From: Candidatus Binataceae bacterium
GTDB lineage: Bacteria; Desulfobacterota; Binatia; Binatales; Binataceae
DNA: 64,000 bases
Assembly (NCBI GenBank): GCA_050011435.1
Contig: JBEKJC010000008.1
Location: forward strand, 75,941 to 139,940
Reading direction: 5' to 3'
Both the position numbers and the translations under genes were made by a program. Below the pieces are notes generated by a model. That model saw only the letters and a list, made by a program, of their open reading frames with translations. It searched no databases and was not told the origin of the DNA. Every line of letters starts with the position of its first letter. The stretch's first letter is position 1. This document shows, in pieces, positions 36,425 to 54,885 of this stretch.

Positions 36425-36455
36425 GAGCGGGAGTTTGCTGCAAAGGCCGCAAAAA

Positions 36456-36471
36456 TGTTTCACGTGAAACA
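36456..36471. promoter_or_regulatory. parS: parS centromere-like site (ParB binding)
   Basis: Perfect TGTTTCACGTGAAACA (extends to an 18-bp palindrome), intergenic between convergent genes. Confidence 0.92.
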
Positions 36472-36511
36472 TCTTCGCCGGGTGTTTGCGGGGAAGACCT
36501 TCACCCATTGG

Positions 36512-36549
36512 GAGAAGTATTTCACCCTCGCTCCAGAGAAGTATTTCAC
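36512..36549. repeat. 14-bp direct repeat GAGAAGTATTTCAC x2 (24-bp period)
   Basis: Exact copies at 36512 and 36536; degenerate copy GGGAAGACCTTCAC at 36491. Confidence 0.75.
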
Positions 36550-36598
36550 TCTTGACGCGCGGACGGGCTCGATCGGGTAGCTGAGGCCTGCCGCGGCG

Positions 36599-38127: not shown

Positions 38128-38537
38128 GTTGTTGAGAAGCATGGAATGGGAGAAAAAGAAGTTGTCAAGGAACAAAAACCCGTAGCCTTTTTAAGAAACT
38201 GAAACCTCATAGAGGTTTCAGACTTCCCGTTGGTAAAAGATGCGGGCTACGCCCTGTAAAAATCTCATAATCGTTGGTGCTTGCGTTACTCGGTTCCCGC
38301 AGGACTTGGCCGATTACCCGAGCATCGCGAGCGTCAATGATGATGAGGTTTCAGACTTCCCGTTTGGAAGATGCGGGCTGCGCCCTGTGAAAAATCCCAT
38401 GATCGCTGGTGGGTTGCGTTACTCGGTTGCCGCAGGACTTAGCCGACTACCCGAGCATCGCGAGCGTCAATTCATGATGGGAAGCCTGAAACCTTGTGAG
38501 GTTTCAGAAGAATATAAGTTTTGAGTTCCTCAACAAC
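38128..38537. repeat. Modular palindromic element copy A (inverted ends, tandem 133-bp unit)
   Basis: Palindromes at 38199-38221 and 38486-38507, half site at 38345. Ends are GTTGTCAAGGAAC and GTTCCTCAACAAC. Confidence 0.9.
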
Positions 38538-38637
38538 TGGACCTATGCGCGGAGGGCCGTTGGGGCGGCTTGACAAGGCCGCATCGGGGCAGCAGCCTCG
38601 TTGCGATTGTAGCAACCGCGATGGAGGTGGCCTTTAG

Positions 38638-39192
38638 ATGACTTTGGCGGAATCACCGCTGGTCGGTGTGATCATGGGCAGCAAGAGCGACTGGGAGTAT
38701 ATGGCCGCCGCCGCTGAGGTCATGAGTGAACTGCAAATAGCGCATGAGGTGCGGGTGCTGTCGGCCCATCGGACGCCCGATCTAACATTGGAGTACGCGG
38801 CGAACGCGGCGGGCCGCGGCCTGCGTGCGATAATCGCGGGGGCCGGCGGCGCGGCTCATCTGGCGGGGGTCGTCGCGGCCAAGACGCTGCTGCCGGTGAT
38901 AGGAGTGCCGATGCCGACCACTATCCTGAACGGCATGGACTCGCTGCTATCGATCGTGCAGATGCCCAAAGGGGTGCCGGTCGCGACGATGGCGATCGGC
39001 AAGCCGGGGGCGGCGAATGCGGGACTGTTCGCGGCGGCGATAATCGCGCTCGGCGATGCGCAGTTGGCGGATCGTTTGAAGAATTGGCGGGCGGCGCGGG
39101 TGATCGAGTTACTGGAGCAGAAGCTACCTCAAACCAAGGAAGCATCGGTACCAGTTGTCAAATCATCTCAGAGAAAACTCAAGATTAAATGA
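38638..39192 (+). CDS. purE: N5-carboxyaminoimidazole ribonucleotide mutase
   Basis: IMGSKSD, SAHRTP, AGAGGAAHLAG, SIVQMPKGVPVAT. Confidence 0.97.
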   Translation: MTLAESPLVGVIMGSKSDWEYMAAAAEVMSELQIAHEVRVLSAHRTPDLTLEYAANAAGRGLRAIIAGAGGAAHLAGVVAAKTLLPVIGVPMPTTILNGMDSLLSIVQMPKGVPVATMAIGKPGAANAGLFAAAIIALGDAQLADRLKNWRAARVIELLEQKLPQTKEASVPVVKSSQRKLKIK

Positions 39193-39205
39193 GCGATTAA
39201 CCTGT

Positions 39206-39240
39206 AGCAGGCTGTTGAAAAAGGCTTTTCACAGCCTGCT
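39206..39240. terminator. Hairpin after purE; resembles IS/MITE ends
   Basis: AGCAGGCTGTTGAAAA-AGGC-TTTTCACAGCCTGCT, 14 nt past the purE stop. Confidence 0.55.
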
Positions 39241-39336
39241 TCCCCTCACTCGCTCTCTCCCCAGTAGGGGCGAGAAGATAAGGAAAGAAGCCATTTTTCA
39301 CGCAGGGTGTTGAGTTGAAATTTCTAATTGGCAGAC

Positions 39337-40134
39337 ATGCTTAGCGCGTTAGCCAGGTTCGGATTAATCGCTCTCGCGATGGTTGCCGTTGCGGCGCCGC
39401 GCGCGCTGGCGCTCGAGATTCGCACGGCGGGCAAAATCAGCATGCCGGCCGACGTGCAGGTGGTGCCGTTTTCGACCGATGCGCTGGTGGCCGACCGGTT
39501 GCGGCAGGACTTCGAAGCCGAGCATCGATTGGCGGGCATCAGTGCGGCGTCGCCGTTAACGCTGTCAGTTTCGATCACCGAGAGTCCGCTGAGACCGGGC
39601 GTGTCGCTGCAGGATCTGGCACCGGGAGATCCCAATATCGAAGGGTTGATCAAAGCGGCCGGCGCAACACCGCCGCCGCTGGGCGATACGGGGACCGAGG
39701 TCGACGAGGCGGCGCTGGCGCGCGCTCGCGCGCAGAACCACATGCTGCCGCCGGGCGCGACGCCGATGCAGAATGTGTGGAATCAGATTCAGACCCATGG
39801 CGATCTCGGTCCACCGCTGGCGGATCCGGCCGGATGCGTTCCCGGGATGCCATGCGTTGCGACGGGGACGGCGCCGCCGCCATTGCCGCAACCCGGCAGC
39901 GAAGGCGCGACCGGGGACACGCAGGACTACATGTTGCAGGGCTACGAAGGAGCGGGCCGCCGCGCGCGGCGCCAGTTGGCCGCTTCGGACTTCGACAACG
40001 TGATCGTCGCGCGGGTTTCGATGAGCGGATCGGACGACAAGATGACAATTGTCGCCGTGACCCATCCGGGCGAGGACACCCATCAGGCGAAGAAGCTGAT
40101 CGCGGAGGAGATCGTCAACGACGTGCTGCATTGA
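39337..40134 (+). CDS. Hypothetical secreted Pro-rich protein
   Basis: Signal peptide; GC-rich codon usage like the neighbouring genes. Confidence 0.7.
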   Translation: MLSALARFGLIALAMVAVAAPRALALEIRTAGKISMPADVQVVPFSTDALVADRLRQDFEAEHRLAGISAASPLTLSVSITESPLRPGVSLQDLAPGDPNIEGLIKAAGATPPPLGDTGTEVDEAALARARAQNHMLPPGATPMQNVWNQIQTHGDLGPPLADPAGCVPGMPCVATGTAPPPLPQPGSEGATGDTQDYMLQGYEGAGRRARRQLAASDFDNVIVARVSMSGSDDKMTIVAVTHPGEDTHQAKKLIAEEIVNDVLH

Positions 40135-40166
40135 GGATCAGCGGACGGAGAAGAGAAAGGGGAAAT

Positions 40167-40309
40167 TTGTCGAGGAACGCGGAATTGGAGGGAAAAGAAG
40201 TTGTCAAGGAACAAAAACCTTTAGCTTTTTTAAGAAACTGAAACCTCGTGGAGGTTTCAGACTTCCCGTTGGTAAGATGCGGGCTGCGCCCTGTAAAAAC
40301 TCATAATCG
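40167..40309 (+). repeat. Modular palindromic element copy B (single end)
   Basis: Palindrome at 40238-40260, then ACTTCCCGTTGGTAAGATGCGGGCTGCGCCCTG; near copy of the A left end. Confidence 0.9.
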
Positions 40310-40334
40310 ATTAACGCCACAGGACCCGGCTCGC

Positions 40335-40742
40335 CTAGGGTCTCTTCAGTTGCGGGCGGTTGCGTTTGGCGTCGAACATCCGCACGGCCAAGTATCCGGC
40401 GACTATGTAAAACGCGGCGAAGCCGACCTCGATCACGCTGATGCGCTTATCGGTACTCCATCGGGCGGCGGCGACAAACGCGGTGCCCAGCACGAGGAAC
40501 GCGGTCATCTTTGGAATGAAGCCGCGCAGGGGCGAATTCGGATTGTCGGAAGCGCGCGCCGCGAGTACCACCCATAGCATCGCGACCGCGAACGACATCC
40601 CGAGGCAGATCGGGCCGCGCGCGTCGAGACGCTGATCGTTGAACCACAGCGCCAGGAAAAACAGAGCCGCGGCGAGCGGGCCGAAGACGAGCGCGCGCCA
40701 GGTCATCGTGAGTTCGCCGGCAGTGTAATGGTCGTCCTTCAT
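40335..40742 (-). CDS. Hypothetical 4-TM membrane protein
   Basis: Four hydrophobic segments; lies between repeat copies B and C. Start may be the later ATG (MTWRAL). Confidence 0.65.
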   Translation of the reverse strand: MKDDHYTAGELTMTWRALVFGPLAAALFFLALWFNDQRLDARGPICLGMSFAVAMLWVVLAARASDNPNSPLRGFIPKMTAFLVLGTAFVAAARWSTDKRISVIEVGFAAFYIVAGYLAVRMFDAKRNRPQLKRP

Positions 40743-40802
40743 GCGCCGTCAGTATCCGCAAGCAGAGCCGCTATCCGCAAGCGGCGCGCAGAAGGGGAGA
40801 TG

Positions 40803-41212
40803 GTGGTCAAGGAACTCAAAATTATAGTTTTTCAGGAAACTGAAACCTCACGAGGTTTCAGACTTCCCGTTGGGAAGATGCGGGCTTCGCCCTGGAAAAA
40901 TCTCATGATCGCTGGTGGCTTGCGCTACTCGGTTGCCGCAGGACTTAGCCGCCTACCCGAGCATCGCGAGCGCCAACCCATGATGAGGTTTCACGGCATT
41001 CCATGCCGCCGGTGGGCCACGAGCAGCCCAACAGTCTTGACCTGATTTTTCGGACTGCTCGCGATGCTCGATCGCGCGATAAGCGTATCGGCGCGCGTAG
41101 CGAACTGCATTTCTACCGAGGTTTTGACAGGGCGAAGCCCGCATCTTACAAATGGGAAGTTTGAAACCTGAGTGAGGTTTCAATGATATGAAGTTTTGAG
41201 TTCTTCGACCAC
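40803..41212. mobile_element. Modular element copy C, MITE/REPIN-like with ~95-bp imperfect terminal inverted repeats
   Basis: 40803-40903 is an imperfect reverse complement of 41118-41212. Palindromes at 40840-40861 and 41161-41183, half site at 40985. Mobility is inferred. Confidence 0.8.
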
Positions 41213-41240
41213 ATAGATACGCAACATCGTGGAGGAAGTT

Positions 41241-42020
41241 ATGTATCAATCATTCGAATATTCGCTCGACGACGGAATCGCGCTGGTGCGGCTGAACCGG
41301 CCCAACAAGCTCAACGCGATCGACCACACGATGGTGCGGGAGTTTGGCGAACTGGCCGCGAATATCCGGGCGGACAAGAACGTGCGTGTGGTGATCTTCA
41401 CGGGCATCGGGCGCGCGTTTTGCGCGGGCGCCGATATCGCGAGCCTCAACAGTATCGAGACCAGCGGTGACTTCATGACGCATATCGAGACGATTCAGAA
41501 GACCTTCAATGCGCTTGACGATCTCGACCGTCCGACGATCGCGGCGATCAACGGACTGGCGTTCGGCGGAGGCTGCGAGCTGTCGCTGGTGTGCGATTTC
41601 CGCATCATGGCCGAGGAAGCGTCGCTGGGCGTGCCGGAAATCCTGATCGGGGTATTACCGGGAGCGGGCGGTACGCAGCGGCTGGCCAAGATGCTGCCGC
41701 CGGCGATCGCGAAGCAGATGATTTATCTCGGCGAACCGCTCACGGCGGCGCAGGCGTTCCATTTCGGGCTGGTCAACCAGGTGGTGCCGGCGGCGCAGGT
41801 GCTGGAAGCCGCGATGGAGCTCGCGCGGCGGCTGCTGAAGATGCCGCCGCTGGGAGTGCGCTGCGCGAAGCTGCTGGTGCATACGGGGATGAACGCGGAT
41901 CTGAAGACCGGGATTGAGGCGGAGCGGCAAGCGATGGGGTTTTTGTTCGGGACCGCGGATCGCGTCGAGGGCATGGGTGCGTTTCTGGCGAAGCGTCCGG
42001 CGGCGTTCAAGGGGCGGTGA
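41241..42020 (+). CDS. Enoyl-CoA hydratase/isomerase
   Basis: LNRPNKLNA, FCAGADI, FGGGCEL, PEILIGVLPGAGGTQRL. Confidence 0.93.
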   Translation: MYQSFEYSLDDGIALVRLNRPNKLNAIDHTMVREFGELAANIRADKNVRVVIFTGIGRAFCAGADIASLNSIETSGDFMTHIETIQKTFNALDDLDRPTIAAINGLAFGGGCELSLVCDFRIMAEEASLGVPEILIGVLPGAGGTQRLAKMLPPAIAKQMIYLGEPLTAAQAFHFGLVNQVVPAAQVLEAAMELARRLLKMPPLGVRCAKLLVHTGMNADLKTGIEAERQAMGFLFGTADRVEGMGAFLAKRPAAFKGR

Positions 42021-42066
42021 TGGATGGGGAGGGGTGGCGGTGCTCCGCGCTAAAGAGGCGGGGATG

Positions 42067-42192
42067 ATGGTAGAGGAACTCAAAATTATAGTTTTTCAGG
42101 AAACTGAAACCTCACGAGGTTTCAGCGGCATTCCATGCCGTCGGTGGGCCACGCTCGCGATGCTCGGGGAGTTCGCCAAGTCTTGCGGCAAC
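42067..42192 (+). repeat. Modular element copy D
   Basis: 52 bp (42074-42125) identical to 40810-40861; lacks the 133-bp unit; followed by an inverted R module. Confidence 0.9.
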
Positions 42193-42215
42193 ATGATTGC
42201 TCAAGGGCCTGGATA

Positions 42216-42270
42216 ACGCGCGGAGGACCGCGCGGGTTTGTTCACTTCGTTCAGGATGACGGAGGGGGGC
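42216..42270. repeat. CGTC-type REP-like half repeat
   Basis: ACGCGCGGAGGACCGCGCG...TTCGTTCAGGATGACGGAGGGGGGC; homologs at 46518 and, inverted, at 53416. Confidence 0.7.
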
Positions 42271-42303
42271 GGACACACGGGCGAATGGCGGGATCGGGAA
42301 ATA

Positions 42304-43035
42304 CTAGTCGGGATCGAATTCCGCTTCATTGGATGAGCAGGGATCGCGGTCGGAGTCGGAATCCGGGTCGGTGGGGCGGCGGAAACCGAGCAGGGTGGAC
42401 ACCCGATCGAGAATGAAATCGTGCCACGCGCGACTACCGATCAGATCGGGCCGCAGGGTATCGAGATGGGCGAGGCCCATGATCGTCACCTGTAAGAACA
42501 GGGCGGCGAAATCGGGATCGAGGTTGGGGTCGACAGTTCCGCTCTTTTGTGCGGCCGAGACACTGCGGGAGATGACGCGCGCGGCTTCCTCGTTGACCTT
42601 GGACAGCAGGGCCATCGCGTCGTGGGCGCGGCTGCCGGCATCATGAATTTCGAGCGAGAGCTGCCGAATCAGCTTGTACTCCGGAGTGGTATAGCTGGCG
42701 GCGAATTCCGGCAGATCGGAGGCGTCGAGTTGGGCGGGTTCGAGGACGCGAACGCTGGTCGGCAAAGTTGCCAAGGCGTAGCGGACGACCTCGACCAGCA
42801 ATTGCGCCTTGCTCTCGAAATGGCGATAGATGGCGCCGGGAGTAATGCCGCTGCGCTTGGCAATCGCGGGCATCGAGGTGTGCGCGAAGCCGTGGGTGGC
42901 GAAGAGCTGGGCGGCGGAGATCAGGATGCGGTCGCTGGTGGCGGCCTGCGCGGAGGGGTCGCCGAGCGGCTGGCCCGGGAGAGCGTTTGCGCGCGCGCGC
43001 CTGGGGGCTTTGGAACCTGATGCCGACTTTTTCAC
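42304..43035 (-). CDS. TetR-family regulator
   Basis: HTH ILISAAQLFATHGFAHTSMPAIAKRSGITPGAIYRHFESK. Confidence 0.9.
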   Translation of the reverse strand: MKKSASGSKAPRRARANALPGQPLGDPSAQAATSDRILISAAQLFATHGFAHTSMPAIAKRSGITPGAIYRHFESKAQLLVEVVRYALATLPTSVRVLEPAQLDASDLPEFAASYTTPEYKLIRQLSLEIHDAGSRAHDAMALLSKVNEEAARVISRSVSAAQKSGTVDPNLDPDFAALFLQVTIMGLAHLDTLRPDLIGSRAWHDFILDRVSTLLGFRRPTDPDSDSDRDPCSSNEAEFDPD

Positions 43036-43160
43036 TTTTTCACTATCTCACAGGCCCTCAGAGTTTCCGAAAGCCGAGGTTGATTCAAGAGTCGCGAGCA
43101 CGCAGCACGACGCGCCGGAGCAGGCGCCCGCGAAGGGTTTTGGCGCGATGCCGATTATCC

Positions 43161-43189
43161 TTGACAAGTAAATGGACATTCACTAGGTT
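43161..43189 (+). promoter_or_regulatory. Sigma70-type promoter with overlapping palindromic (TetR-like) operator
   Basis: TTGACA-17bp-TAGGTT; the spacer holds the imperfect palindrome AGTAAATG-GA-CATTCACT; divergent TetR gene adjacent. Confidence 0.6.
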
Positions 43190-43471
43190 TCGGAAGAGTA
43201 CTACTGACACCTCAATTTACTGTTGTTGGAAGGGGACCCCAATGACGGAAATAAACCAGCGCTTGCGCCGAGGCGGTCCATAACCGCGACCTCAAGAGGG
43301 GATGCCCGTCAAGCGGACGTCCGTGGAGGACCGATCGCGGTCGTCGCGGATGCGCGTTCGGTGGATTGACTAGTATAGTTGCGGCGCCAGCACGCGGTCG
43401 CGGGTTTGAGCTTCGGAAATTCAAAATCCCTCACCGGGCAGGGAACACCCGATGAGGACGGAGGATCCAAT

Positions 43472-45187: not shown

Positions 45188-45220
45188 TCTGCGCTAGTTT
45201 TCAGACAACTGTTGGTAACA

Positions 45221-45260
45221 GACGAGGGCCGGCAATCGCCGGCCCTCGTCGTTTTCTGTT
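45221..45260 (+). terminator. Rho-independent terminator
   Basis: GACGAGGGCCGGC-AATC-GCCGGCCCTCGTC 13-bp stem followed by GTTTTCTGTT. Confidence 0.85.
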
Positions 45261-45282
45261 ACAGGAAAGAGAAGGGGGGAGG

Positions 45283-45494
45283 GTTGTTGAGGAACGCGGA
45301 ACCTTTGGTTTCTTTCTGAAACCTCATAGAGGTTTCAGACTTCCCGTTTGATGGAAGAGGGTAGCGATATGCGCAGGATACCGCCCTTCCCGCAGGACTT
45401 AGCCGACTACCCGAGCATCGCGAGCGTCAATCATGATGAGGTTTCAGACTTCCCGTTGGGGTGAGGTCATCGATTGGCGCTCGCGATGCTCGGG
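45283..45494 (+). repeat. Modular element copy E
   Basis: Palindrome at 45316-45338, half site at 45438, R module inverted pair at 45410-45432 and 45472-45494. Confidence 0.9.
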
Positions 45495-45518
45495 CTGATC
45501 TGCTAACCGGAGTGGACC

Positions 45519-46271
45519 ATGCTGCGATGGGGTCGCGTTCTCATTGGGTGCGGAGTTGGGGTTGTCGCCCTCTTCGCCTACGTGCGGTTCTTCGGCTGTC
45601 AGACCGAGCTGGCGGTAGACGCATGGTATTTGGGTTGGAAATACCCAATCCTCTGGAAAGTGCCCGCAGAACTTAGCGACCAGTCAATTTCCAACTCTCC
45701 GGGCCGACGATTTTCTTATCTCGGCTACGACTTCGAGGTGCCTTGGGACGACTTGGACAAAGAGCACACGAAGCCCATACGAACTTGGCTGGTAATCAAC
45801 TTTCAGTCTGGAAAAACGATCGTATTCATGGGTCACCAACCGGACGGCCTTCTGAAGGCATTCAGGCGTGAAGAAGTTATCCGAGAGCGATATGGTGATG
45901 ACTATGCCACCCTTCGCCAGATACTCGACGCTTCCCCTGATAAACTCACACCGTTTACGTCGCGACGGGAGGCAATCGGCGAGTTCTGGTCCCTGAATTT
46001 CAAGCAGGCATTCATGATAAACGGGGAGTCAGGTGTCTTTCTGATCGGAACGCCAGACTTCCGAGGCTTCCAATACGGGAACCCAAAGACCGGTAATCGC
46101 GAGATTAGGGACGAGCTTTACTCTGAGCAGGGTAGTATCGGGTTTATGTTCCGAAGCAGGAACTCGGTCTCCATCTCGCAAGCGGAAATCAATCGCGTAA
46201 TACAGAGCGTCCGGCGAACGGGCGACCAAAGCCTGGGATCTAATACTACCGGCGCACAGCCGGCCCACTAA
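45519..46271 (+). CDS. Orphan hypothetical protein with N-terminal membrane anchor
   Basis: 250-aa ORF; visibly more AT-rich codons than its neighbours; bracketed by repeat copies E and F. Confidence 0.7.
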   Translation: MLRWGRVLIGCGVGVVALFAYVRFFGCQTELAVDAWYLGWKYPILWKVPAELSDQSISNSPGRRFSYLGYDFEVPWDDLDKEHTKPIRTWLVINFQSGKTIVFMGHQPDGLLKAFRREEVIRERYGDDYATLRQILDASPDKLTPFTSRREAIGEFWSLNFKQAFMINGESGVFLIGTPDFRGFQYGNPKTGNREIRDELYSEQGSIGFMFRSRNSVSISQAEINRVIQSVRRTGDQSLGSNTTGAQPAH

Positions 46272-46424
46272 GCCGAATTCTGGATCTCAGCGTTATAACC
46301 TAGCGGGCGCGGAGCCTGTCCTCGGCGAGGCGCCGCCCGCGATGACGGAAGCGTCGCGAGCCGGTTAGCGTAAGGTGAGCGTGTGGCCGTCACGCGACGA
46401 GAGTCAATCGTCACGAAGTTCTAG

Positions 46425-46510
46425 CAGGGCGAAGCCCGCATCTTACCAAAAGGGAAGTCTGAAACCTCTATGAGGTTTCAGAGACCTATAAGTTTTGGGT
46501 TCCTCAACAA
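46425..46510 (-). repeat. Modular element copy F (inverted end)
   Basis: CAGGGCGAAGCCCGCATCTTACCAAAAGGGAAGT, palindrome at 46459-46481, then GTTCCTCAACAA. Confidence 0.9.
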
Positions 46511-46517
46511 ATGGAAT

Positions 46518-46612
46518 ACGCGCGGGGGACCGCGCGAGATCCTTCGACTCCGGCAGCCTTCGCTCAGGATGACGGAGGGGGGCAGCCGGTAATCAGGATG
46601 ACGGGAGGGGGC
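46518..46612. repeat. CGTC-type REP-like half repeat with duplicated tail
   Basis: ...AGATCCTTCG...CTTCGCTCAGGATGACGGAGGGGGGC; the TCAGGATGACGG tail occurs twice. Confidence 0.7.
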
Positions 46613-46621
46613 GCCCGGCGA

Positions 46622-47713: not shown

Positions 47714-47926
47714 TGCCGGATCCTCGTGGCGCGACAATAGCCGAATCGATGCGCGACGGGATAGCAATTCGGGCGCGGAAAACGACGGCGGCGCCGACCG
47801 TGGCGCGGCGCATTGCGAAGTTTGTATGGAGTGGATTAGAAGATGAATCAAGGCGTGTTTGCGCTGAATTAGCCGGGGCGACAGCCGATCGACCAAAGTT
47901 CGAGTTAAATGACGATCGCGGAGTTC

Positions 47927-47974
47927 TTGACAAGATTGCGGGAGTTTCCTATAAACCAAGCAAGCGTTTGTTTT
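47927..47974 (+). promoter_or_regulatory. Sigma70 promoter plus TetR-type operator
   Basis: TTGACA-17bp-TATAAA overlapped by the imperfect palindrome AAACCAAGCAAGCGTTTGTTTT. Confidence 0.65.
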
Positions 47975-48037
47975 AGACCGAAGCCTGAAAGCTGTATTTC
48001 CGGGGCAGCGGTACTAACGACTCAGGAGATCATTTAA

Positions 48038-49051
48038 ATGTTCGAGACCGAACATCACGTACAGAGCGAATACGAAACGATCTATCAGCGCGATTATTCG
48101 GTGCATGCGCCCGATATGCGCCGCCTCTATGAGAACGCCAAGCGCGATCAGTGGAATGTGTCGAAGGATATCGACTGGTCGATGCCGGTGGATCTCGACA
48201 AGGGGATTTTCGCCGAAGGCATGATCGACGGCTACGGCAGTCCGCTGTACGAGAAGCTCGACGCCAAGACCAAGCGCGAACTCAACGTGGAATTCTCCTG
48301 CTGGCGGCTGTCGCAACTGCTGCACGGCGAGGAGGGTGCGATGCTCGCGTGCAGCCAGTTGGTCGATATGGTGCCGACCAACGACGCGAAGTTTTTTCAG
48401 TGCACGCAGGTGGTGGACGAGGCGCGGCATGCCGAGGTTTTGAGCCGCTACCTGGCGGAGAAGTGCGACGGCCGCGTCTATCCGATGAGCAAGAATATTA
48501 AAGTACTGTTCGACTACCTGCTCGGCCAGGGCAAATGGTTTATCAAGACCGCGGGTCTGCAGTTGGTTGCGGAGACTTTCGCGGTCGGACTGTTCCGCAT
48601 GCTCGCGGAGACCTCGCAGGATCCGCTGTTGAAGACCATCAGCAAGAAAATCCTGCAGGACGAATCGCGGCACATGGGCTTTTCGGTAATCGGGCTGCCC
48701 GAAATGATCGCGTCGTTGAGCCCGAGCGACTTCACGGAACTTGAGGATTTCACCGCGGAGGCCTGCCGCCTCGTATTGCGCGGACAGTTCCCGCGGCCGG
48801 CGTTCGAGAAGGTCGGCTTCAACCAGACCGAGATCGACGAGATCCAGCGCTATCGTATCGAAAACGCGAAGAGCAACGATTACGTTTATTTCCGTCAGAT
48901 ATTCCGGCGCGAGATGTACACGCAGGTCGTATCGAACATGAAGAAGGTCGGCCTGATGAGCGAACGCACCAAAGAAAATCTGCGCAAGCTCGGTATCGAC
49001 CCGAATATCGATGGACGTGCGGCGACGCTCGAACAGCAGCCCGGCGCATGA
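48038..49051 (+). CDS. Ferritin-like di-iron oxygenase/desaturase
   Basis: HGEEGA...DEARH...AE...DESRH di-iron ligands. RBS AGGAG. Confidence 0.85.
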   Translation: MFETEHHVQSEYETIYQRDYSVHAPDMRRLYENAKRDQWNVSKDIDWSMPVDLDKGIFAEGMIDGYGSPLYEKLDAKTKRELNVEFSCWRLSQLLHGEEGAMLACSQLVDMVPTNDAKFFQCTQVVDEARHAEVLSRYLAEKCDGRVYPMSKNIKVLFDYLLGQGKWFIKTAGLQLVAETFAVGLFRMLAETSQDPLLKTISKKILQDESRHMGFSVIGLPEMIASLSPSDFTELEDFTAEACRLVLRGQFPRPAFEKVGFNQTEIDEIQRYRIENAKSNDYVYFRQIFRREMYTQVVSNMKKVGLMSERTKENLRKLGIDPNIDGRAATLEQQPGA

Positions 49052-49103
49052 TGCCGTCAAATAAGGGTGGGGTGAACCGGTTGCACGGATGACTCGTTAA
49101 CCG

Positions 49104-49700
49104 ATGCCCAACTCGCCGGCTCAAGCGCTTCGTGCGCCTCGGCAAGACAACCGCCGCGCCCAGTTACTGGACGCGGCGGCGCGTCTTTTCCGTGAGCGCG
49201 GTTTCCATGCGACCTCGATGCGCGATATCGCCAAGGGGGTCGGGATGCTCTCGGGGTCGATCTACTACCACTTCGATTCGAAGGAGGAGATGCTGCTCGC
49301 CGTTTACCAGGAGGGCGAGCGGCGGGTGGCCGAAGCGGTGGATGCGGCAGTCGCGGGCGAGACCGAGCCGTGGCGGCGGCTCGAGGCGGCATGCGCTGCG
49401 CATCTGCGCGCGCTAATCACGCATCGCGACTACTCGCAGGTGATGATCCAGACGTCGCCGCGCGAAGCGGCGGGGGCGGCGGAAGCGCACATCCGCGAAT
49501 TGCGACGGGATTACGAGCAGCGGTTTCGACGGCTAATCGACGATCTCAAGCTGCCACCCGAAATCGATCGGCATTATCTGCGGCTGCTGCTGTTCGGCGC
49601 GCTGAACTGGTCGCCGGTCTGGTACCGCACGGGCGGCGATTCGCCGGAAATCGTCGCACGCCGGTTTCTGGATACGCTGCGCAAACAACTCGAGGTTTAG
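49104..49700 (+). CDS. TetR-family regulator (AtuR/KstR2-like)
   Basis: AARLFRERGFHATSMRDIA..GSIYYHF; C-terminal GALNW..VWY. Confidence 0.9.
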   Translation: MPNSPAQALRAPRQDNRRAQLLDAAARLFRERGFHATSMRDIAKGVGMLSGSIYYHFDSKEEMLLAVYQEGERRVAEAVDAAVAGETEPWRRLEAACAAHLRALITHRDYSQVMIQTSPREAAGAAEAHIRELRRDYEQRFRRLIDDLKLPPEIDRHYLRLLLFGALNWSPVWYRTGGDSPEIVARRFLDTLRKQLEV

Positions 49701-49747
49701 CGGAGGGCGCTCGCCCGAGGTGGTCGCGTTCGCGTTCGCGAATACGA

Positions 49748-50155
49748 TCACTCTTTGGGCTTTTCGATCTCGACCGGGCCGCCGGCTTCTTTCCATGCAC
49801 GGAAGCCGCCCTCGATGTGGCAGACCGGCTCGAGTCCCATTTGCTGTACGGCCTGCGTCGCGAGTGCCGAGCGCAAGCCGCCGGCGCAGAAGAACACGAA
49901 TTTTTTACCCGTCCCGAAGATATTCTTGTAGTAGGGGCTTTCCGGATCGACCCAGAACTCAAGCATCCCGCGCGGGGCGTGGAAGGCGCCCGGGATGCGG
50001 CCGTCGCGCGCGAGTTCGCGGATGTCGCGGAGATCCACCAGCACGACGTTGGGATCGTCCTTGAGCGGAATCGCGTCGCGCGCCTGCAGCGTCTCGATTT
50101 CCTTGTAGGCGTCGGCGACGAGTTGCTTGATGCCCTTTTTCAGTTTCAGCGCCAT
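49748..50155 (-). CDS. Rhodanese-like protein
   Basis: VDLRD, PRGMLEF, FCAGGLRS, GGFRAW. Confidence 0.92.
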   Translation of the reverse strand: MALKLKKGIKQLVADAYKEIETLQARDAIPLKDDPNVVLVDLRDIRELARDGRIPGAFHAPRGMLEFWVDPESPYYKNIFGTGKKFVFFCAGGLRSALATQAVQQMGLEPVCHIEGGFRAWKEAGGPVEIEKPKE

Positions 50156-50207
50156 GATCGTGACCTCGGTTTACTCCGCTTGGCGGCCCGGAGCGGGAAG
50201 GGGGAGA

Positions 50208-50558
50208 GAGAACCGTTGAAACCTTTGAAAGGTTTCAAACTTCCAACAGTGAACAAGATTGATAGGTCTTGCGTGCGATATCATTGAGACCTTTCACGGG
50301 TGCGCAAGCGGAGGTTGGCCCTTTCCAGGCTGACAGAGGAGCGGGGATTCTCGAGCTCTAAGGGTCCCGCTCCGTCGCGGCGGTCCCGCAGATTGCGCAT
50401 CTAATTCCAGAGGGCATTATTACTGTCACCCCTACGGAAAACCTATCACCAAATTGCTGATGGCAGCCAGGACAACGGCATTTCAACTCGCGCGATTCAG
50501 ACCATCATGTTTATTCATTGTGGGAAGTTTGAAACCTTTCGAAGGTTTCAAGTTTCTC
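50208..50558. repeat. Modular element copy G: divergent variant, inverted pair around ~220 bp of unique interior
   Basis: TTGAAACCTT-N3-AAGGTTTCAA at 50216-50238 and 50529-50551; ~60-bp imperfect inverted arms. Confidence 0.8.
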
Positions 50559-50721
50559 GCTCCCTGCATCCCCACCGGGTCGCACGATTCTCAAAAAATG
50601 CGGTTGTGCGCTATAGTCCGCGCCGGATCATCCGAATCGTCAGAATTCGATTGAGTTCGATGCGGACTGCTCCGAAGCTCCGATCGTGGAAGGAAACGCC
50701 CATTTGGAAGGAGGTGCCCAC

Positions 50722-51930
50722 TTGCCCAACCGTGCGCTGAGCGATTTGCGAGTGGTCGAATATGCCGAGATGGTCTCGGGGCCGATGTGCGGCAAGATGT
50801 TCGCCGACATGGGCGCCGAAGTGATCAAGCTCGAGGCTCCGGGGCGGGGCGACGAGGCCCGCAGCCATCCGCCATATCCGGGCGACGTCCCACATCCCGA
50901 AAAGAGCGGCTTCTTTTTGTATCTCAACACCAGCAAGAAGAGCCTGACGCTCGATCCGGCCACGCCGCGCGGTGCAGAAATCTTCAAGCGGCTGATTGCG
51001 GACGCCGACATCCTGATCGAGAACCATCGGCCGGGCTACCTCGCGAGTATCGGGCTCGGATTCGAGACGCTGCACGGGCTGAATCCGCGGCTGATCGTGA
51101 CGTCGATAACGCCGTTCGGGCAGACCGGTCCGTATCGCGACTGGAAGGGCACCGACCTGATCGAATGGGCGATGAGTCTTACCGGCTACAACACGCCGAC
51201 GCTGGTCGATGACGTGGCGAAGGAAAATCCGCTGCGCGCGCCCGGTCATGCCGCCGAGATGATGGGCGCGACCAACGCCGCGGCGGCCTCGATGATGGCG
51301 CTGTTCCATCGCGACGCGACCGGCGAGGGCGAATGGGTTGACGCGCCGTGCTGGCAGGCGACGGTGAACACGTCGAAGCTCGAAATGGCGGCGTACTCCT
51401 ACGTCGGCATCCCGTTCAGCCGGCAACGCGCCAACGTGCAGGTCGGGCTGGAGCCGCTGCCGTGCCGCGACGGCTACATCTATACGTTGTGGGCGGCCGA
51501 CGCTCATTGGAAGGCGCTCAAAACGCTGCTCGGCAATCCGGCGGAACTTGCCAACGCGATTTTCGACACCCATGCGGGCCGTCACGAGAACGACGATATT
51601 TTGCGCACGCTGATACGCGAGGAACTCGCGCAGCACGACATGGATCATCTCGTGACCGAAGGGCAGCGGCTGGGTCTGACGATCGGGCCGGTGCATACGG
51701 TGGCGCAGGCGGCGCACAATCCGCATCTGCGGGCGCGCGGCGCATTCGTCGAGATCGATCATCCGGTGGCAGGGCGTTTCGAGTATCCGCGATCGCTCGT
51801 GCAGATGAGCGGGACGCCGCCTCATTCGACACGCGCGCCGCTGCTCGGTGAGCATAACGTCGAGATACTCGGCCGGCTGGGCTACAGCAGCAAGGATCTG
51901 CCGGGACTTCGCGCGGCCGGCGCAATTTAG
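50722..51930 (+). CDS. Class III CoA-transferase subunit (Glu at the apparent catalytic Asp position)
   Basis: RVVEYAEMVSGP, GAEVIKLE, NTSKKS. TTG start after AAGGAGGT. Confidence 0.88.
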   Translation: MPNRALSDLRVVEYAEMVSGPMCGKMFADMGAEVIKLEAPGRGDEARSHPPYPGDVPHPEKSGFFLYLNTSKKSLTLDPATPRGAEIFKRLIADADILIENHRPGYLASIGLGFETLHGLNPRLIVTSITPFGQTGPYRDWKGTDLIEWAMSLTGYNTPTLVDDVAKENPLRAPGHAAEMMGATNAAAASMMALFHRDATGEGEWVDAPCWQATVNTSKLEMAAYSYVGIPFSRQRANVQVGLEPLPCRDGYIYTLWAADAHWKALKTLLGNPAELANAIFDTHAGRHENDDILRTLIREELAQHDMDHLVTEGQRLGLTIGPVHTVAQAAHNPHLRARGAFVEIDHPVAGRFEYPRSLVQMSGTPPHSTRAPLLGEHNVEILGRLGYSSKDLPGLRAAGAI

Positions 51931-51958
51931 CGGGACGCCGGGAAACTATGAAAAGAGA

Positions 51959-52076
51959 TTGCTGGGGAACGCAAAACTATTATTTCCCGACACTGAAACC
52001 TCAATGAGGTTTCAGACTTCCCATAAGCATGATTGATGCTCGCGCTGCCCGGGTGGGCGGCCAAGTCCTGCGGAAC
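51959..52076 (+). repeat. Modular element copy H
   Basis: Palindrome at 51993-52015 plus an inverted R module; resembles the reverse complement of the A right end. Confidence 0.85.
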
Positions 52077-52150
52077 AGAGCGAGCGCTTTGAGGCAGACT
52101 TCATCTTAGGGAACGGGCTGGGGGTCAGGTTTTAGCAAGGAAGTGAAAAA

Positions 52151-53368
52151 ATGAGTCTTCCGCTTGAAGGAATCAGGGTCGCGGATTTCAGTTGGATCAT
52201 CAACGGGCCGCAGATCGCGCAATGGCTCGCGACCATGGGCGCCGAGGTGATCAAGATCGAGTCGCAAGTCTATATCGATATCGGACGCACCAATCCGGCG
52301 GGGATGGCCGATCGCGTCGCGGGGGTGAATCGCAGCGGCTTCTACCACGCGCTCAACTACGGCAAGAAGGCGATCAGCCTCAACCTGGGACATCCGAAGG
52401 GGCGCGAACTGGCGCATGAAATCGTGCGCCGCAGCGATTTCGTGCTGGAATGTTTTCCCGCTCCGACCGCCGAAAAACTCGGTCTGACATACGCCGAGAT
52501 GAAAAAGCTCAAGTCCGACATCATCATGATCTCGGTCTCGCTGCTGGGCAAAACCGGACTGGAACCGTCGAAGTGGGTCGGATGGGGTCCGATGGCTTGC
52601 TGCTTCGTCGGCATGTTCGACGCGCAAGGCTATCCGGGCGGACCGCCGCGCCAGACCGGCGGGACCTGGCCCGACTATGCAATTGCGTCATCGGTGGTGT
52701 TTCACGCGCTGGCCGCATTACGCTATCGCAATCGCACGGGCGAGGGCCAATGGATCGACGCGAGCATGGGCGAGACGGTGATCGGCCAGATGCACGAATG
52801 GTTCACTGACTATTTCATGAATGGGCATGATCGGCGCCAATGGGGTAATCGCGACGACGTGATGGCGCCGCACAATACCTATCGCTGCAAGGGCGATGAC
52901 TATTGGATTGCGATAGCGGTCGCCAATCAGGTCGAATGGGAGGCGCTGTGCGGCGCGATGGGAAATCCGGCGTGGAGCAGCGACGCCAAGTACGCCGATC
53001 AGCTCAGCCGCTGGAAGAATCGCGACGATCTCGATAGCCATATCGCGGCGTGGACGCGCGATCAGGAACATCTTGAACTGGCGGCGCGGCTGCAGCAGGC
53101 CGGAGTCGCGGCGGGCCCGGTGCTCGACAGCACCGAGCTGCACAACGACCCGCATCTGTGGAAATGGGGTTACTGGTGGAAGATGAACCATCATGAAGTC
53201 GGCGAGCGGATTCTGCCGGGGATGCCGGTGAAACTGAGTAATGTGCCGCAGCTCAACTACTCATATCCGCCCGATCTGGGTGAGCATAATCATGAAGTCT
53301 TCGGCGGCTTGCTCGGTCTCAGCGACGCCGAAATCAAGATGCTGATCGAGGAAAAGGTCATTTACTAG
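52151..53368 (+). CDS. Class III CoA-transferase subunit
   Basis: RVADFSWIINGP, GAEVIKIES, NYGKK, WPDY (Asp present). Confidence 0.9.
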   Translation: MSLPLEGIRVADFSWIINGPQIAQWLATMGAEVIKIESQVYIDIGRTNPAGMADRVAGVNRSGFYHALNYGKKAISLNLGHPKGRELAHEIVRRSDFVLECFPAPTAEKLGLTYAEMKKLKSDIIMISVSLLGKTGLEPSKWVGWGPMACCFVGMFDAQGYPGGPPRQTGGTWPDYAIASSVVFHALAALRYRNRTGEGQWIDASMGETVIGQMHEWFTDYFMNGHDRRQWGNRDDVMAPHNTYRCKGDDYWIAIAVANQVEWEALCGAMGNPAWSSDAKYADQLSRWKNRDDLDSHIAAWTRDQEHLELAARLQQAGVAAGPVLDSTELHNDPHLWKWGYWWKMNHHEVGERILPGMPVKLSNVPQLNYSYPPDLGEHNHEVFGGLLGLSDAEIKMLIEEKVIY

Positions 53369-53415
53369 TGTCCTGAGTCGTAAATTGGCTTACCAACGTT
53401 CAACACCCGAATTCA

Positions 53416-53617
53416 CCGTCATCCCGAACGCAGTGAAGGGTCTCGCGCGGCCCTCCGTGCGTAATTCAGTTGTTGAGGAGCGCAAAACTTTAGCTTCACT
53501 GAAACCTCATGGAGGTTTCAGACTTCCCGTTTGTAAGATGCGGGCTTCGCCATCATGATTGGCGCTCGCGTTGCTCGATCGCGCGATAGGCGCGCGGGGA
53601 CGCTCGCGATGCTCGGG
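53416..53617 (+). repeat. Modular element copy I with attached CGTC-type half repeat
   Basis: CCGTCATCCCGAACG... (53416-53462), then GTTGTTGAGGAGC, palindrome at 53499-53521, Q module and two inverted R fragments. Confidence 0.88.
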
Positions 53618-53695
53618 TGAGTGGTCACGCGGACGAGCTTGAGACGCGCCAGACTAGATATAGTGAGACAGCTTTGCAAGAGAGAGGAGTGACTA

Positions 53696-54880: not shown

Positions 54881-54885
54881 GCGGT

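What the first reader, a model, noticed from the sequence alone, without database searches (positions are those of the whole stretch)
38128..53617. Locally confined modular palindromic repeat family filling intergenic gaps next to parS
Seen: nine elements (A-I) built from shuffled modules. X is GTTGT(T/C)(G/A)AGGAAC-AAAA; P is CTGAAACCTC-N2/3-GAGGTTTCAG; Q is ACTTCCCGTT..AAGATGCGGGCTNCGCCCTG; R is CCGCAGGACTTRGCCGA..CCCGAGCATCGCGAGCG. Full P copies start at 38199, 38486, 40238, 40840, 41161, 42104, 45316, 46459, 50216, 50529, 51993 and 53499; half copies at 38345, 40985 and 45438. All are intergenic, even between tandem CoA-transferase genes, and I found none in 1-38 kb or 54-64 kb. No transposase, RAYT or recombinase gene is in the window. 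Inference: an unrecognised non-autonomous REPIN/MITE-like system spreading locally, or an origin-proximal array of protein-binding sites.
Basis: partly seen in the sequence, partly recalled or inferred. Interest (0 to 1): 0.85.

Follow-up and report, generated by a model that had tools for sequence, protein, structure and literature searches.

The report
Genome-wide mosaic palindromic repeat family
The nine elements are the densest local patch of a repeat family that is scattered over the whole genome of an uncultured peat bacterium and comes and goes between related species, so it is an ordinary kind of selfish intergenic repeat; its one unusual feature is that the neighbouring "parS" site belongs to a similar scattered repeat.

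Summary
The motifs and coordinates are real: 8 exact P palindromes against 0 expected, plus the degenerate and half copies. "Locally confined" is wrong. The window's genome holds about 256 P sites in 320 repeat clusters on most large contigs. The window patch is simply the densest, with 13 P in 16 kb against a mean of 0.88.

The family is a mosaic built on a conserved double hairpin, P plus Q, with covarying stems. Modules X, R, S, T, V and W attach to that core.

Copy number ranges from 0 to 176 among 13 congeners. Syntenic gaps are filled in this genome and empty in relatives. Independent metagenomes reproduce the gene–repeat junctions, so the copies are not assembly artefacts.

No RAYT was found in any of the 13 congeners. 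No other nuclease or transposase I tested tracks the family. Rfam has no match.

Best reading: a BIME/BOX/MITE-like, non-autonomous, RAYT-independent repeat family of Candidatus Binataceae.

The "parS" beside it is one of 29 perfect copies. Twenty-five of them are dispersed inside their own repeat, while the true parS–parB locus lies on another contig.

The parts
36425..36560 (.). Module Y. It is a parS-bearing palindromic repeat, with the perfect parS 16-mer at 36456-36471, flanking inverted GCGAAGA/TCTTCGC and CCGCAAA/TTTGCGG arms, and then TTCACCC-type units.
   Evidence: It is one of about 45 Y places and 29 perfect parS copies in the genome. It is absent from the orthologous gap in G001 and G007.
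38128..38562 (.). Element A, two-ended, in the divergent murE|purE gap. Order: degenerate X, X, P, Q, R, half-P, Q, R, P, X' and a W-like end. The Q-R-half-P unit of 133 bp is repeated in tandem.
   Evidence: (D1, D4, D5, D7, D13). The gap is a short repeat-free spacer in G001, G010 and G007.
40166..40310 (+). Element B, one-ended: degenerate X, X, P, Q. It lies in the convergent gap after ORF 39328-40134.
   Evidence: (D7, 91% identical to the left end of A).
40790..41215 (.). Element C, a two-ended foldback: leader, X, P, Q, R, half-P, S ... R', Q', P, X'. It fills the divergent gap and ends 27 bp before the ATG of the enoyl-CoA hydratase gene at 41242.
   Evidence: Folded as single-stranded DNA it gives -122.8 kcal/mol, z = -11.8. 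The gap is 161-208 bp and module-free in G004, G005, G007 and G010.
42054..42270 (+). Element D: leader, X, P, S-start, R', W', V'. It lies in the convergent ECH|TetR gap.
   Evidence: (D9, D11, D17). The gap is empty in G007 (151 bp) and G004 (100 bp).
45221..45262 (+). Canonical intrinsic terminator of the amidohydrolase gene. It is not part of the repeat and lies just before element E.
   Evidence: The same terminator is conserved in G005.
45262..45510 (+). Element E: polypurine leader, X, P, Q-like, R, half-P, R'.
   Evidence: G005 has an orthologous but decayed leader-X-P at the same place.
45519..46271 (+). ORF of 250 aa with an N-terminal hydrophobic segment and no Pfam family. It lies between the inverted arms of E and F and may be cargo or a co-insertion.
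   Evidence: single copy. It is absent from this gap in G004, G005, G007 and G010, where the gap is 188-338 bp against 1435 bp here. Homologues at 39-54% identity occur only in other genera.
46400..46615 (-). Element F: Q', P, X', W', V', V'. It faces the 3' end of the hydrolase gene (46622-47959, minus strand).
   Evidence: (D11, D13, D14).
50190..50575 (.). T-type two-ended element: polypurine, TTGAAACCTT-type P, module T, about 170 bp of unique interior, P, polypyrimidine. It occupies the place where relatives carry a second enoyl-CoA hydratase gene.
   Evidence: D6; the P-T part is repeated about 35-68 times; the interior is unique. The ECH2 gene is present at this position in 5 of 5 relatives.
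51955..52085 (+). Element G: X, P, R'. It lies between the tandem CoA-transferase genes.
   Evidence: The gap is 40 bp and empty in G007. G005 has Q'-P-X' there in the opposite orientation, and G010 has a degenerate copy.
53410..53640 (+). Element H: V, W, X, P, Q, R', R'. It lies between CoA-transferase 2 and the thiolase-like gene.
   Evidence: The gap is 44 bp in G004 and 71 bp in G007, with no module, against 327 bp here.

Best explanation
The nine elements are local members of a lineage-restricted, genome-wide family of mosaic palindromic intergenic repeats. It resembles the BIME, BOX or foldback-MITE kind of repeat.

The conserved core is a double hairpin. P has a 10-bp stem and a 2-3 nt centre. 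It is followed by ACTTCCC and, about 10 nt later, by a 4-bp G+C hairpin (Q). In this genus the outer side of P carries a linear motif X (GTnGTyGAGGAAC-n-CAAAAC) preceded by a polypurine leader. The inner side carries interchangeable modules Q, R, S or T. Beyond X there may be a GC hairpin W and a module V.

One arm can stand alone. Two arms facing each other form a long foldback.

Shown: the elements are non-coding, sit in intergenic DNA with a preference for convergent gaps, have no orientation preference relative to transcription, and are gained, lost and re-oriented between congeneric species.

Inferred: they propagate as non-autonomous DNA. A trans-acting activity that is not a RAYT would recognise the P/Q hairpins. 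Mosaic diversity would arise from recombination or nested insertion at P, with some local copying or gene conversion. That local copying would help explain why this 16-kb stretch is the densest patch. Any effect on neighbouring genes, such as 3'-end hairpins or a displaced promoter of the hydratase gene, would be a side effect.
For: Genome-wide spread: 198 relaxed P palindromes on 36 contigs. Profile searches give 256 P, 244 R, 213 X, 150 Q and 66 S sites in 320 clusters totalling 39.7 kb, plus 55 W and 42 V hits.

Architecture: the commonest forms are X-P-Q (26), X-P-Q-R' (19) and X-P-R (18). 32 of the 50 adjacent facing X pairs span 635 bp or less. The minimal element is leader-X-P-X'-leader', 84-91 bp between X ends. 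A two-ended element folds with z = -11.8.

Structural constraint: of 288 sites with exact GAAACC...GGTTTC, the outer stem pair is C-G in 160, T-A in 46 and G-C in 38, Watson-Crick in 246 of 288. The inner pair is C-G in 185 and T-A in 77, Watson-Crick in 262 of 288. There is no pairing beyond 10 bp. An alignment fold of 91 X-P-Q units supports only the P and Q helices. The Q stem reads GGGC/GCCC in this genus and GCGC/GCGC, changed on both sides, in genus g27 and in 5 of 44 copies from named species.

Cores are conserved while linkers diverge. Copies are old: the median best-match identity of arms is 0.80, and 2 of 189 reach 0.95.

Mobility-like turnover: exact P cores number 176 in this genome, then 62, 36, 31, 28, 8, 4 and 2 in seven congeners, 0 in five congeners and 0 in 18 genomes of other genera. 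P-Q without X occurs in genus g27.

In a 16-gene syntenic block, G007 has no module, with gaps as short as 40-71 bp, while this genome has elements in most gaps. The same gap can hold differently oriented or composed elements in different species. One orthologous but decayed copy in G005 shows vertical inheritance followed by decay.

Context: elements occupy 69 of 526 convergent gaps, 108 of 1883 tandem gaps and 27 of 504 divergent gaps. Orientation in tandem gaps is 42 against 34. 4 of 213 X sites fall inside called genes.

Not an artefact: contigs from three independent metagenome runs cover 39323-40263, 41130-42103, 42171-43765, 45428-46478, 46554-52018 and 51993-53527 with 0 differences. 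They join unique genes to repeat ends.

Local copying: 14 of 189 arms have their closest arm within 10 kb, against 2.3 expected. Neighbouring pairs A/B and C/D are 91-96% identical.
Against: No mobilising enzyme was identified. No autonomous copy exists between inverted arms.

No clear target-site duplication could be read. The compared genomes are different species and their spacers barely align.

No near-identical copies exist, so there is no sign of current activity.

No filled/empty polymorphism within one population was seen. All joints have short sides and can come from other copies.

Strong conservation of the cores, covariation and the preference for 3' ends would also fit a host function.

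My gene map is a crude ORF-and-codon-score caller (77% coding), so the gap classes are approximate.
Confidence: 0.7

Rival explanations
1. These are host-maintained functional elements. The P and Q hairpins would act on RNA or DNA at gene ends (protection of mRNA 3' ends, attenuation of read-through, or binding of a nucleoid or regulatory protein), and that function would be why they persist.
For: Cores are conserved while linkers drift. Both stems covary. Occupancy is enriched about twofold in convergent gaps. The X side lies a median 32 nt from the stop codon where it faces a 3' end, in 135 of 212 cases. Read outward, P is followed by a T-rich tail in some copies and is picked up by the terminator scan. 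Copies are old yet keep perfect P.
Against: Orientation in tandem gaps is near random, 42 against 34. Copy number is 0 in five congeners and in 18 genomes of other genera that have the same genes. Orthologous gaps work without the elements. A canonical terminator already precedes element E. No sigma-70-like promoter was found in the arms.
Confidence: 0.15
2. This is a REPIN-RAYT system: REP doublets mobilised by a single-copy Y1 (HUH) transposase.
For: P is a short high-copy extragenic palindrome. Inverted doublets exist. Copy number differs between relatives, as the cited paper describes for REPs (PMC3733652 passages).
Against: The Y1_Tnp family PF01797 has 0 hits in the window's genome (100% complete by marker genes) and 0 hits in 13 of 13 genomes of the genus, while the control rang in 6 of 14 known genomes. 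There is no GTAG or CGTC tag next to the stem (consensus). Strand bias is weak, 85 against 53.
Confidence: 0.03
3. This is an array of binding sites for a partition or origin protein (ParB-like), placed near the origin next to parS.
For: A perfect parS lies 1.7 kb from the first P. P and parS share the hexamer TGAAAC. The two densest P patches each have a parS within 20 kb.
Against: P lies on 36 contigs. The parS in the window is one of 25 dispersed copies embedded in a repeat. The ancestral cluster of 4 parS, with the same spacing as in the P-free congeners, and the only ParB_N gene above cut-off are on contig C44. The half-site order in P is the reverse of parS, and P has a 2-3 nt spacer.
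Confidence: 0.03
4. This is an assembly or binning artefact: repeats collapsed or chimerically joined in a metagenome-assembled genome.
For: The genome is a 137-contig assembly with 2.81% contamination. k-mer contigs break inside the repeats.
Against: Three runs from three studies give identical contigs across the gene-repeat junctions. 18 runs hold 89-94% of the stretch's sampled words. The same modules occur in at least 11 independently assembled species records.
Confidence: 0.01

Closest known systems
BIMEs: bacterial interspersed mosaic elements built from REP/PU palindromes (enterobacteria, pseudomonads)
   Same: A short high-copy extragenic palindrome is combined in many arrangements with a small set of other conserved motifs. 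Locations are mostly at gene 3' ends. Elements occur as clusters and doublets. Copy number varies between relatives (BIME description from the abstract of PMC2817692 in the listing, and passages of PMC3733652).
   Different: There is no GTAG or CGTC tag and no RAYT. P is a perfect 10-bp palindrome rather than an imperfect, bulged one. A linear motif X and a polypurine leader form terminal inverted repeats. There is no sequence similarity to any Rfam family.
CGTC-type REPs, which lack a dedicated transposase
   Same: They are palindromic repeats with 8-9 bp stems and short loops, have no associated transposase gene, and show uneven abundance among relatives (PMC3733652, Table 1 and Discussion passages).
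   Different: P has no CGTC tag. According to that paper CGTC REPs rarely cluster, whereas this family is strongly mosaic and clustered.
BOX elements of Streptococcus pneumoniae and Correia/NEMIS elements of Neisseria (recalled, not checked in any call)
   Same: BOX has a modular build (boxA-boxB-boxC-like). Correia elements have foldback structure with terminal inverted repeats. Both number in the hundreds, are intergenic, and have no known transposase.
   Different: The sequences and hosts are unrelated. The TA target duplication of Correia elements was not seen here. This comparison rests on my recollection only.
Foldback MITEs derived from insertion sequences
   Same: Two-ended copies have terminal inverted repeats and fold into one long hairpin. 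They are non-coding and differ in presence between species.
   Different: No parent IS shares the ends. No target-site duplication was found. Most copies are one-ended arms.

Membership tests
REP / REPIN-RAYT | Short (20-40 bp) extragenic palindrome in high copy number | tested here: met
   There are 256 P sites, with a 10-bp stem and a 2-3 nt centre, and 4 of 213 X sites inside called genes.
REP / REPIN-RAYT | GTAG (or CGTC) tetranucleotide at one end, outside the stem (PMC3733652) | tested here: not met
   The consensus around P is ...GGAAA-[P]-ACTTCCC... No pairing and no conserved tag lies next to the stem. A YTAG lies 12-18 nt upstream in the X-P linker only.
REP / REPIN-RAYT | Cognate Y1 (IS200/IS605-type) transposase gene, usually flanked by the REPs | tested here: not met
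   PF01797 has 0 hits in the window's genome and 0 of 13 in the genus. The control rang in 6 of 14 known genomes.
BIME | REP-type palindrome combined with other conserved motifs in mosaic arrangements | tested here: met
   More than 45 distinct architectures of P with X, Q, R and S, plus T, V and W.
BIME | Binding of host proteins (IHF, gyrase, Pol I) | not testable with these tools
   No binding data are available for this uncultured organism.
MITE | Terminal inverted repeats | tested here: met
   Leader+X arms are inverted at both ends of 32 short pairs. The foldback has z = -11.8. Most copies, however, are one-ended.
MITE | Target-site duplication | tested here: inconclusive
   No direct repeat is evident at the ends. 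Filled/empty comparisons are between species whose spacers barely align.
MITE | Parent insertion sequence with the same ends | tested here: not met
   ORFs enclosed by arms are unrelated single-copy genes. The rve, IS110, DDE_Tnp_1 and IS1595 genes have no modules at their ends.
Any Rfam RNA family | Match to a curated covariance model | tested here: not met
   0 matches at E <= 1 in window 37000-55000, both strands.
Chromosomal parS centromere (for the site at 36456-36471) | 16-bp palindrome TGTTNCACGTGAAACA | tested here: met
   Perfect match.
Chromosomal parS centromere (for the site at 36456-36471) | Member of the conserved cluster beside parAB | tested here: not met
   The conserved cluster of 3-4 sites within 3 kb in the P-free congeners corresponds to C44:37575-40882, next to the ParB_N gene at C44:41886. 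The window copy is absent from the orthologous gap in G001 and G007.
Chromosomal parS centromere (for the site at 36456-36471) | Bound by ParB | not testable with these tools
   It would need ChIP or in-vitro binding.

The most novel reading that the evidence does not exclude
A RAYT-independent palindromic replicator system is active in one subclade of Binataceae. Its module repertoire includes the canonical parS centromere. In the same eight congeners that carry the P family, perfect parS 16-mers have multiplied from the ancestral 3-4 clustered sites to as many as 29. In this genome 25 of them are scattered over 23 contigs, inside a conserved repeat that in places abuts P, S and R modules. 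If the cell's ParB loads at these sites, mobile repeats are rewiring where ParB, and with it SMC, is loaded on the chromosome. If it does not, the cell must have a way to ignore perfect parS sites.
Probability: 0.2. Interest if true: 0.7.

Novelty: new member of a known kind. Interest (0 to 1): 0.4.

Why it matters
For the finding as given, not much. It adds a well-characterised mosaic repeat family to an uncultured phylum (Binatota/Binatia) where I found none described. My two searches of the paper library listed no paper that holds either lineage name together with the repeat terms. It also explains why assemblies of this organism break where they do.

Two points go further.

First, the family keeps perfect, covarying hairpin cores over long times without any RAYT. 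It is therefore a test case for how REP-like sequences persist without the known transposase.

Second, the canonical parS sequence itself behaves as a dispersed repeat in the same genomes. Origin-proximal confinement of parS is the rule in studied bacteria; that statement rests on my recollection of comparative surveys and was not checked in any call. A natural genome with about 25 extra perfect sites would be a ready-made experiment on ParB/SMC loading.

Tried and rejected
**Protein-coding reading of X-P.** Some copies carry an ATG or GTG and an open frame (for example 40800 onward). X-P linker lengths differ by non-multiples of three, the 133-bp Q-R-half-P unit shifts the frame, and other copies have stops. 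Rejected.

**Outward promoter in the arms.** The promoter scan found 2 sites against 4.8 expected, and neither is in an element.

**Strand-specific RNA signal.** Orientation in tandem gaps is 42 against 34.

**Integron attC-like sites.** I considered this because X starts with GTTGT and single genes are separated by repeats. I dropped it because the family is genome-wide, flanks large housekeeping-type genes, and X does not fit GTTRRRY.

**DNA uptake sequence.** Single half-sites are too few.

**Candidate mobilisers**
- No gene-carrying copy lies between arms.
- The rve-type transposases, 5+2 copies on small contigs, have no modules within 500 bp.
- IS110 gave 3 hits, DDE_Tnp_1 gave 9, DUF559 gave 2, and TnpB gave 0. 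Y2_Tnp gave 0, but its control rang in no genome, so that result is uninformative. None of these has modules nearby. A looser motif look found only isolated chance-level hits.
- A small GIY-YIG gene (C27:43721-44023) lies among modules and ends in a V module. It is present in the five P-free congeners and was not found in G001, G004, G007 and G010. Rejected.
- The IS1595-family transposase has 7 matches here. It was not found in G007 (36 P) and has 7 matches in G012 (0 P). Rejected as the P mobiliser.

**Viral carriage.** 0 matches in viral contigs.

**Reads**
- All four runs are k-mer contigs. No contig spans the interiors of A or C.
- The listed joints (for example 38262>38427 and 45433>46427) have sides of 46 letters or fewer and can come from other copies, so they show neither empty sites nor excision.
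- The RNA run X19 gave contigs on genes with 2-16 differences, so they come from a related strain. Some of its loose ends contain repeat modules. I draw no conclusion on expression, and parts without cover mean nothing.

**Habitat.** 18 peat or wetland runs hold the stretch. The two small-share RNA rows and the three 0.00 rows are no evidence.

**Leading-strand bias of X.** 85 against 53. It is weak, uses GC-skew sign as a proxy, and genes show 199 against 143. Not used.

**Not available.** ISfinder is not on hand, so 'no match to a described family' rests on Rfam and on two literature searches. Supplementary files of papers are closed. The additional files of PMC3733652 list REP families that I could not compare with P.

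**parS in print.** Searches for parS carried by repeats listed nothing relevant. I saw listings and abstracts only.

Full report
**1. The observation**

The exact pattern CTGAAACCTC-N2-3-GAGGTTTCAG occurs 8 times in the window, at 38199, 40238, 40840, 42104, 45316, 46459, 51993 and 53499. None is expected in shuffles. With one mismatch per half-site the other full copies (38486, 41161) and the half copies (38345, 40985, 45438) appear. The only hits outside 38-54 kb are three isolated single 10-mers, each with a mismatch.

Pfam names most neighbouring ORFs:
- Mur ligase (minus strand)
- PurE
- enoyl-CoA hydratase
- TetR (minus strand)
- amidohydrolase
- an alpha/beta hydrolase (minus strand)
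- an AurF-like oxygenase
- two family III CoA-transferases
- a thiolase-like protein

All elements lie between these ORFs. So the description of the window is accurate.

**2. Not locally confined**

The window is G000:C8:75941-139940, in a 4.65-Mb assembly of 137 contigs. A relaxed P pattern finds 198 full palindromes on 36 contigs. BLAST of four window elements against the genome shows every part repeated some 50-230 times.

Iterated profile searches give 256 P, 244 R, 213 X, 150 Q and 66 S sites. These fall into 320 clusters, with a median length of 101 bp, a maximum of 601 bp and a total of 39.7 kb. W has 55 hits and V has 42.

Within the window no module lies outside 38199-53650. The stretch starting at 38199 has 13 P in 16 kb. 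That is the highest count in the genome; the runner-up has 12 (contig C3), the mean is 0.88, and the Poisson tail for 12 or more is 2e-10.

**3. Anatomy**

The commonest architectures are one-ended: X-P-Q (26), X-P-Q-R' (19) and X-P-R (18). Solo R (41) and solo S (17) also occur. Of 50 adjacent facing X pairs, 32 span 635 bp or less. The shortest, at 84-91 bp between X ends, are leader-X-P-X'-leader', which is one long palindrome centred on P.

Aligned copies show a polypurine leader (…GGGAG) before X. Many also have a GC hairpin W (CGCGCGG-N4-CCGCGCG plus TAATCC) and then module V (…TCAGGATGAC…) further out. The window's elements read as follows:
- A: X, X, P, Q, R, half-P, Q, R, P, X'
- B: X, X, P, Q
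- C: X, P, Q, R, half-P, S … R', Q', P, X'
- D: X, P, S, R', W', V'
- E: X, P, Q-like, R, half-P, R'
- F: Q', P, X', W', V', V'
- a T-type two-ended element at 50190-50575
- G: X, P, R'
- H: V, W, X, P, Q, R', R'

The alignment of 189 X-P arms shows conserved cores (GTnGTyGAGGAAC-n-CAAAAC and the P arm) and free linkers.

**4. Structure**

I examined 288 sites with exact GAAACC…GGTTTC. The stem pair outside this core is C-G in 160, T-A in 46 and G-C in 38, Watson-Crick in 246 of 288. The pair inside is C-G in 185 and T-A in 77, Watson-Crick in 262 of 288. Nothing pairs beyond the 10-bp stem, and the centre is 2 or 3 nt of free sequence.

An alignment fold of 91 X-P-Q units supports only the P helix and a 4-bp G+C helix in Q. 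X is unpaired.

In genus g27 the element is just a short leader, P and Q. Its Q stem differs from this genus by a change on both sides, GGGC/GCCC to GCGC/GCGC. The same double change is seen in 5 of 44 copies from the named species records, and one-sided changes are rare.

A two-ended element folds as single-stranded DNA at -122.8 kcal/mol, z = -11.8. One-ended units fold little better than shuffles, z between -0.9 and -3.0.

Covariation shows that symmetry is maintained. It does not tell a hairpin from a dimer-binding site.

**5. Turnover between species**

All are from records titled Candidatus Binataceae, Candidatus Binatus, or 'delta proteobacterium'/'Deltaproteobacteria' metagenome-assembled genomes, and they belong to at least 11 species genomes.

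Among 31 relatives the exact P core occurs:
- 176 times in this genome
- 62, 36, 31, 28, 8, 4 and 2 times in seven congeners
- 0 times in five congeners
- 0 times in 18 genomes of other genera

A second sample of the family shows P-Q in genus g27 and weakly in g41.

At the purE locus 3 of 20 loci carry any module. In the three closest syntenic relatives the murE|purE gap is a short repeat-free spacer, where this genome has the 420-bp element A. G004 has a differently composed element there.

A 16-gene block is syntenic in five relatives. G007 has no module in it at all, with gaps of 40, 71, 151 and about 200 bp. The window's genome has elements in most gaps. The CoA-transferase gap holds X-P-R' here, Q'-P-X' in the opposite orientation in G005, and a decayed copy in G010.

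After the amidohydrolase gene G005 keeps the same terminator and polypurine leader followed by a decayed X-P. Some insertions are therefore shared by descent and then decay.

In this genome that gap also holds a single-copy 250-aa ORF between inverted arms. The ORF is absent there in four relatives. The second hydratase gene that 5 of 5 relatives carry before CoA-transferase 1 is replaced here by the T-type element.

**6. Context and age**

These figures use my crude gene map.
- Elements occupy 69 of 526 convergent gaps, 108 of 1883 tandem gaps and 27 of 504 divergent gaps.
- Orientation in tandem gaps is 42 against 34.
- The X end faces a gene's 3' end in 135 of 212 cases, at a median 32 nt. 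It faces a start in 77 cases, at a median 98 nt.
- Each arm's best match elsewhere in the genome has a median identity of 0.80. Only 2 of 189 reach 0.95, so there has been no recent burst.
- 14 of 189 arms have their closest relative within 10 kb, against 2.3 expected and a maximum of 10 in 500 permutations.
- The neighbouring pairs A/B and C/D share private variants at 91-96% identity. This indicates some local copying or conversion.

**7. Not an artefact**

18 peat or wetland metagenome runs filed under 18 studies hold 89-94% of the sampled words of 38100-47900. Contigs from three of them match the window with 0 differences from unique genes into the repeats. The covered stretches are 39323-40263, 41130-42103, 42171-43765, 45428-46478, 46554-52018 and 51993-53527. 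The contigs break only inside repeats, as k-mer assemblies must.

**8. What moves it**

This is unknown.
- Y1_Tnp (RAYT) has no hit in this genome or in any of the 13 genomes of the genus, and the control was positive.
- TnpB has none.
- IS110, DDE_Tnp_1, DUF559, GIY-YIG and rve genes exist. They have no modules at their ends, except for one small GIY-YIG gene among modules.
- That GIY-YIG gene, and an IS1595-family transposase found later, both fail the phyletic test against P counts.
- Rfam has no match at E <= 1.
- The viral contig collection has no exact match.

From passages of PMC3733652, RAYT-type REPs end in GTAG, and a second super-family ends in CGTC and lacks a dedicated transposase. 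P has neither tag. In lacking a transposase it behaves like the CGTC group.

**9. The parS next door**

The perfect parS at 36456-36471 is one of 29 perfect copies, plus 3 with one mismatch. They lie on 24 contigs that total about 2.5 Mb. None lies in a called gene. Nearly all sit inside a longer conserved palindrome, GCGAAGA-parS-TCTTCGC within CCGCAAA…TTTGCGG arms, flanked by TTCACCC-type units. Some abut S, R or P modules directly. A profile finds about 45 such places.

The five P-free congeners have 1-4 perfect parS. In four of them the 3-4 sites all lie within 3 kb on one contig. The eight P-bearing congeners have 5-29. These genomes are kin and not independent.

This genome's copy of the conserved cluster is C44:37575-40882, with the same spacing, next to the only ParB_N gene above cut-off at C44:41886.

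The orthologous gap downstream of murE has no parS in G001 or G007. None of the 19 G005 parS places listed is at the orthologous spot.

Three of five IS1595-family transposase paralogues here have a perfect parS 80-100 bp upstream of their start. It sits inside a roughly 230-bp stretch that is about 92% identical between copies, while the genes themselves are 63-70% identical.

So 'next to parS' does not mark the origin. parS itself is part of a dispersed repeat in these genomes.

**10. Verdict**

The finding is a real, well-structured repeat family. It is a new member of a known kind (mosaic REP/BIME/BOX/MITE-like elements). It is genome-wide and lineage-restricted, has no RAYT, and its mobiliser is unidentified. 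The most interesting open thread is the dispersal of perfect parS sites in the same genomes.

Noticed in passing
window 36456-36471 (module Y, 36425-36560); genome-wide list: The perfect parS 16-mer occurs 29 times in this genome, on 24 contigs. 25 of the copies lie outside the conserved parS-parB locus on contig C44, and they are embedded in a conserved palindromic repeat. P-free congeners have 1-4 copies and P-bearing congeners have 5-29.
   Followed up: yes
G000 C26:4263/4361-5284, C15:84573/84649-85605, C4:6773/5789-6682 (L135, L136): IS1595-family transposase paralogues (Pfam DDE_Tnp_IS1595 plus Zn ribbon) are 63-70% identical to each other. They carry a perfect parS 80-100 bp upstream, inside a roughly 230-bp upstream stretch that is about 92% identical between copies. 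G005 shows the same pairing at C14:60679/59656-60594.
   Followed up: partly
G000 C27:43721-44023 and the neighbouring ORF (L122:1417-1722 minus strand, L122:2009-2431 plus strand): A small GIY-YIG nuclease gene has a C-terminus (…DPSLRSG) that is the translation of a V-type repeat module. Next to it is an endonuclease VII-like ORF. The GIY-YIG gene is widespread in the family but does not track the P repeats.
   Followed up: partly
window 45519-46271: A single-copy 250-aa ORF with an N-terminal hydrophobic segment and no Pfam family sits between inverted repeat arms. It is absent from this gap in four relatives. Its homologues, at 39-54% identity, occur only in other genera.
   Followed up: partly
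window 50155-50686: A second enoyl-CoA hydratase gene is present between the orthologues of 49748-50155 and CoA-transferase 1 in 5 of 5 relatives. It is missing here and is replaced by a two-ended T-type repeat with a unique interior of about 170 bp.
   Followed up: partly
window about 40750-40786: A direct repeat of TATCCGCAAGC, present twice, lies just upstream of the minus-strand ORF 40335-40742. It is conserved in G010 and G007 and looks like an operator. Element C begins right after it and has displaced the spacer that relatives have upstream of the hydratase gene.
   Followed up: no
G000 small contigs C54, C61, C79, C82, C128 (and C53, C61): An rve-type DDE transposase of about 340 aa occurs in 5 copies at 86-89% DNA identity, plus 2 copies of a second type. 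All are on small contigs without repeat modules.
   Followed up: partly
G000 contig pairs such as C40/C44, C29/C40, C24/C51: Several kilobase-scale segments are 85-90% identical between contigs. This may mean a second related strain is co-binned in the assembly, whose contamination is given as 2.81%.
   Followed up: no
genome-wide: X-P arms are co-oriented with the GC-skew-inferred leading strand in 85 cases against 53, whichever way the neighbouring gene points. Genes show 199 against 143. The bias is weak and unexplained.
   Followed up: partly
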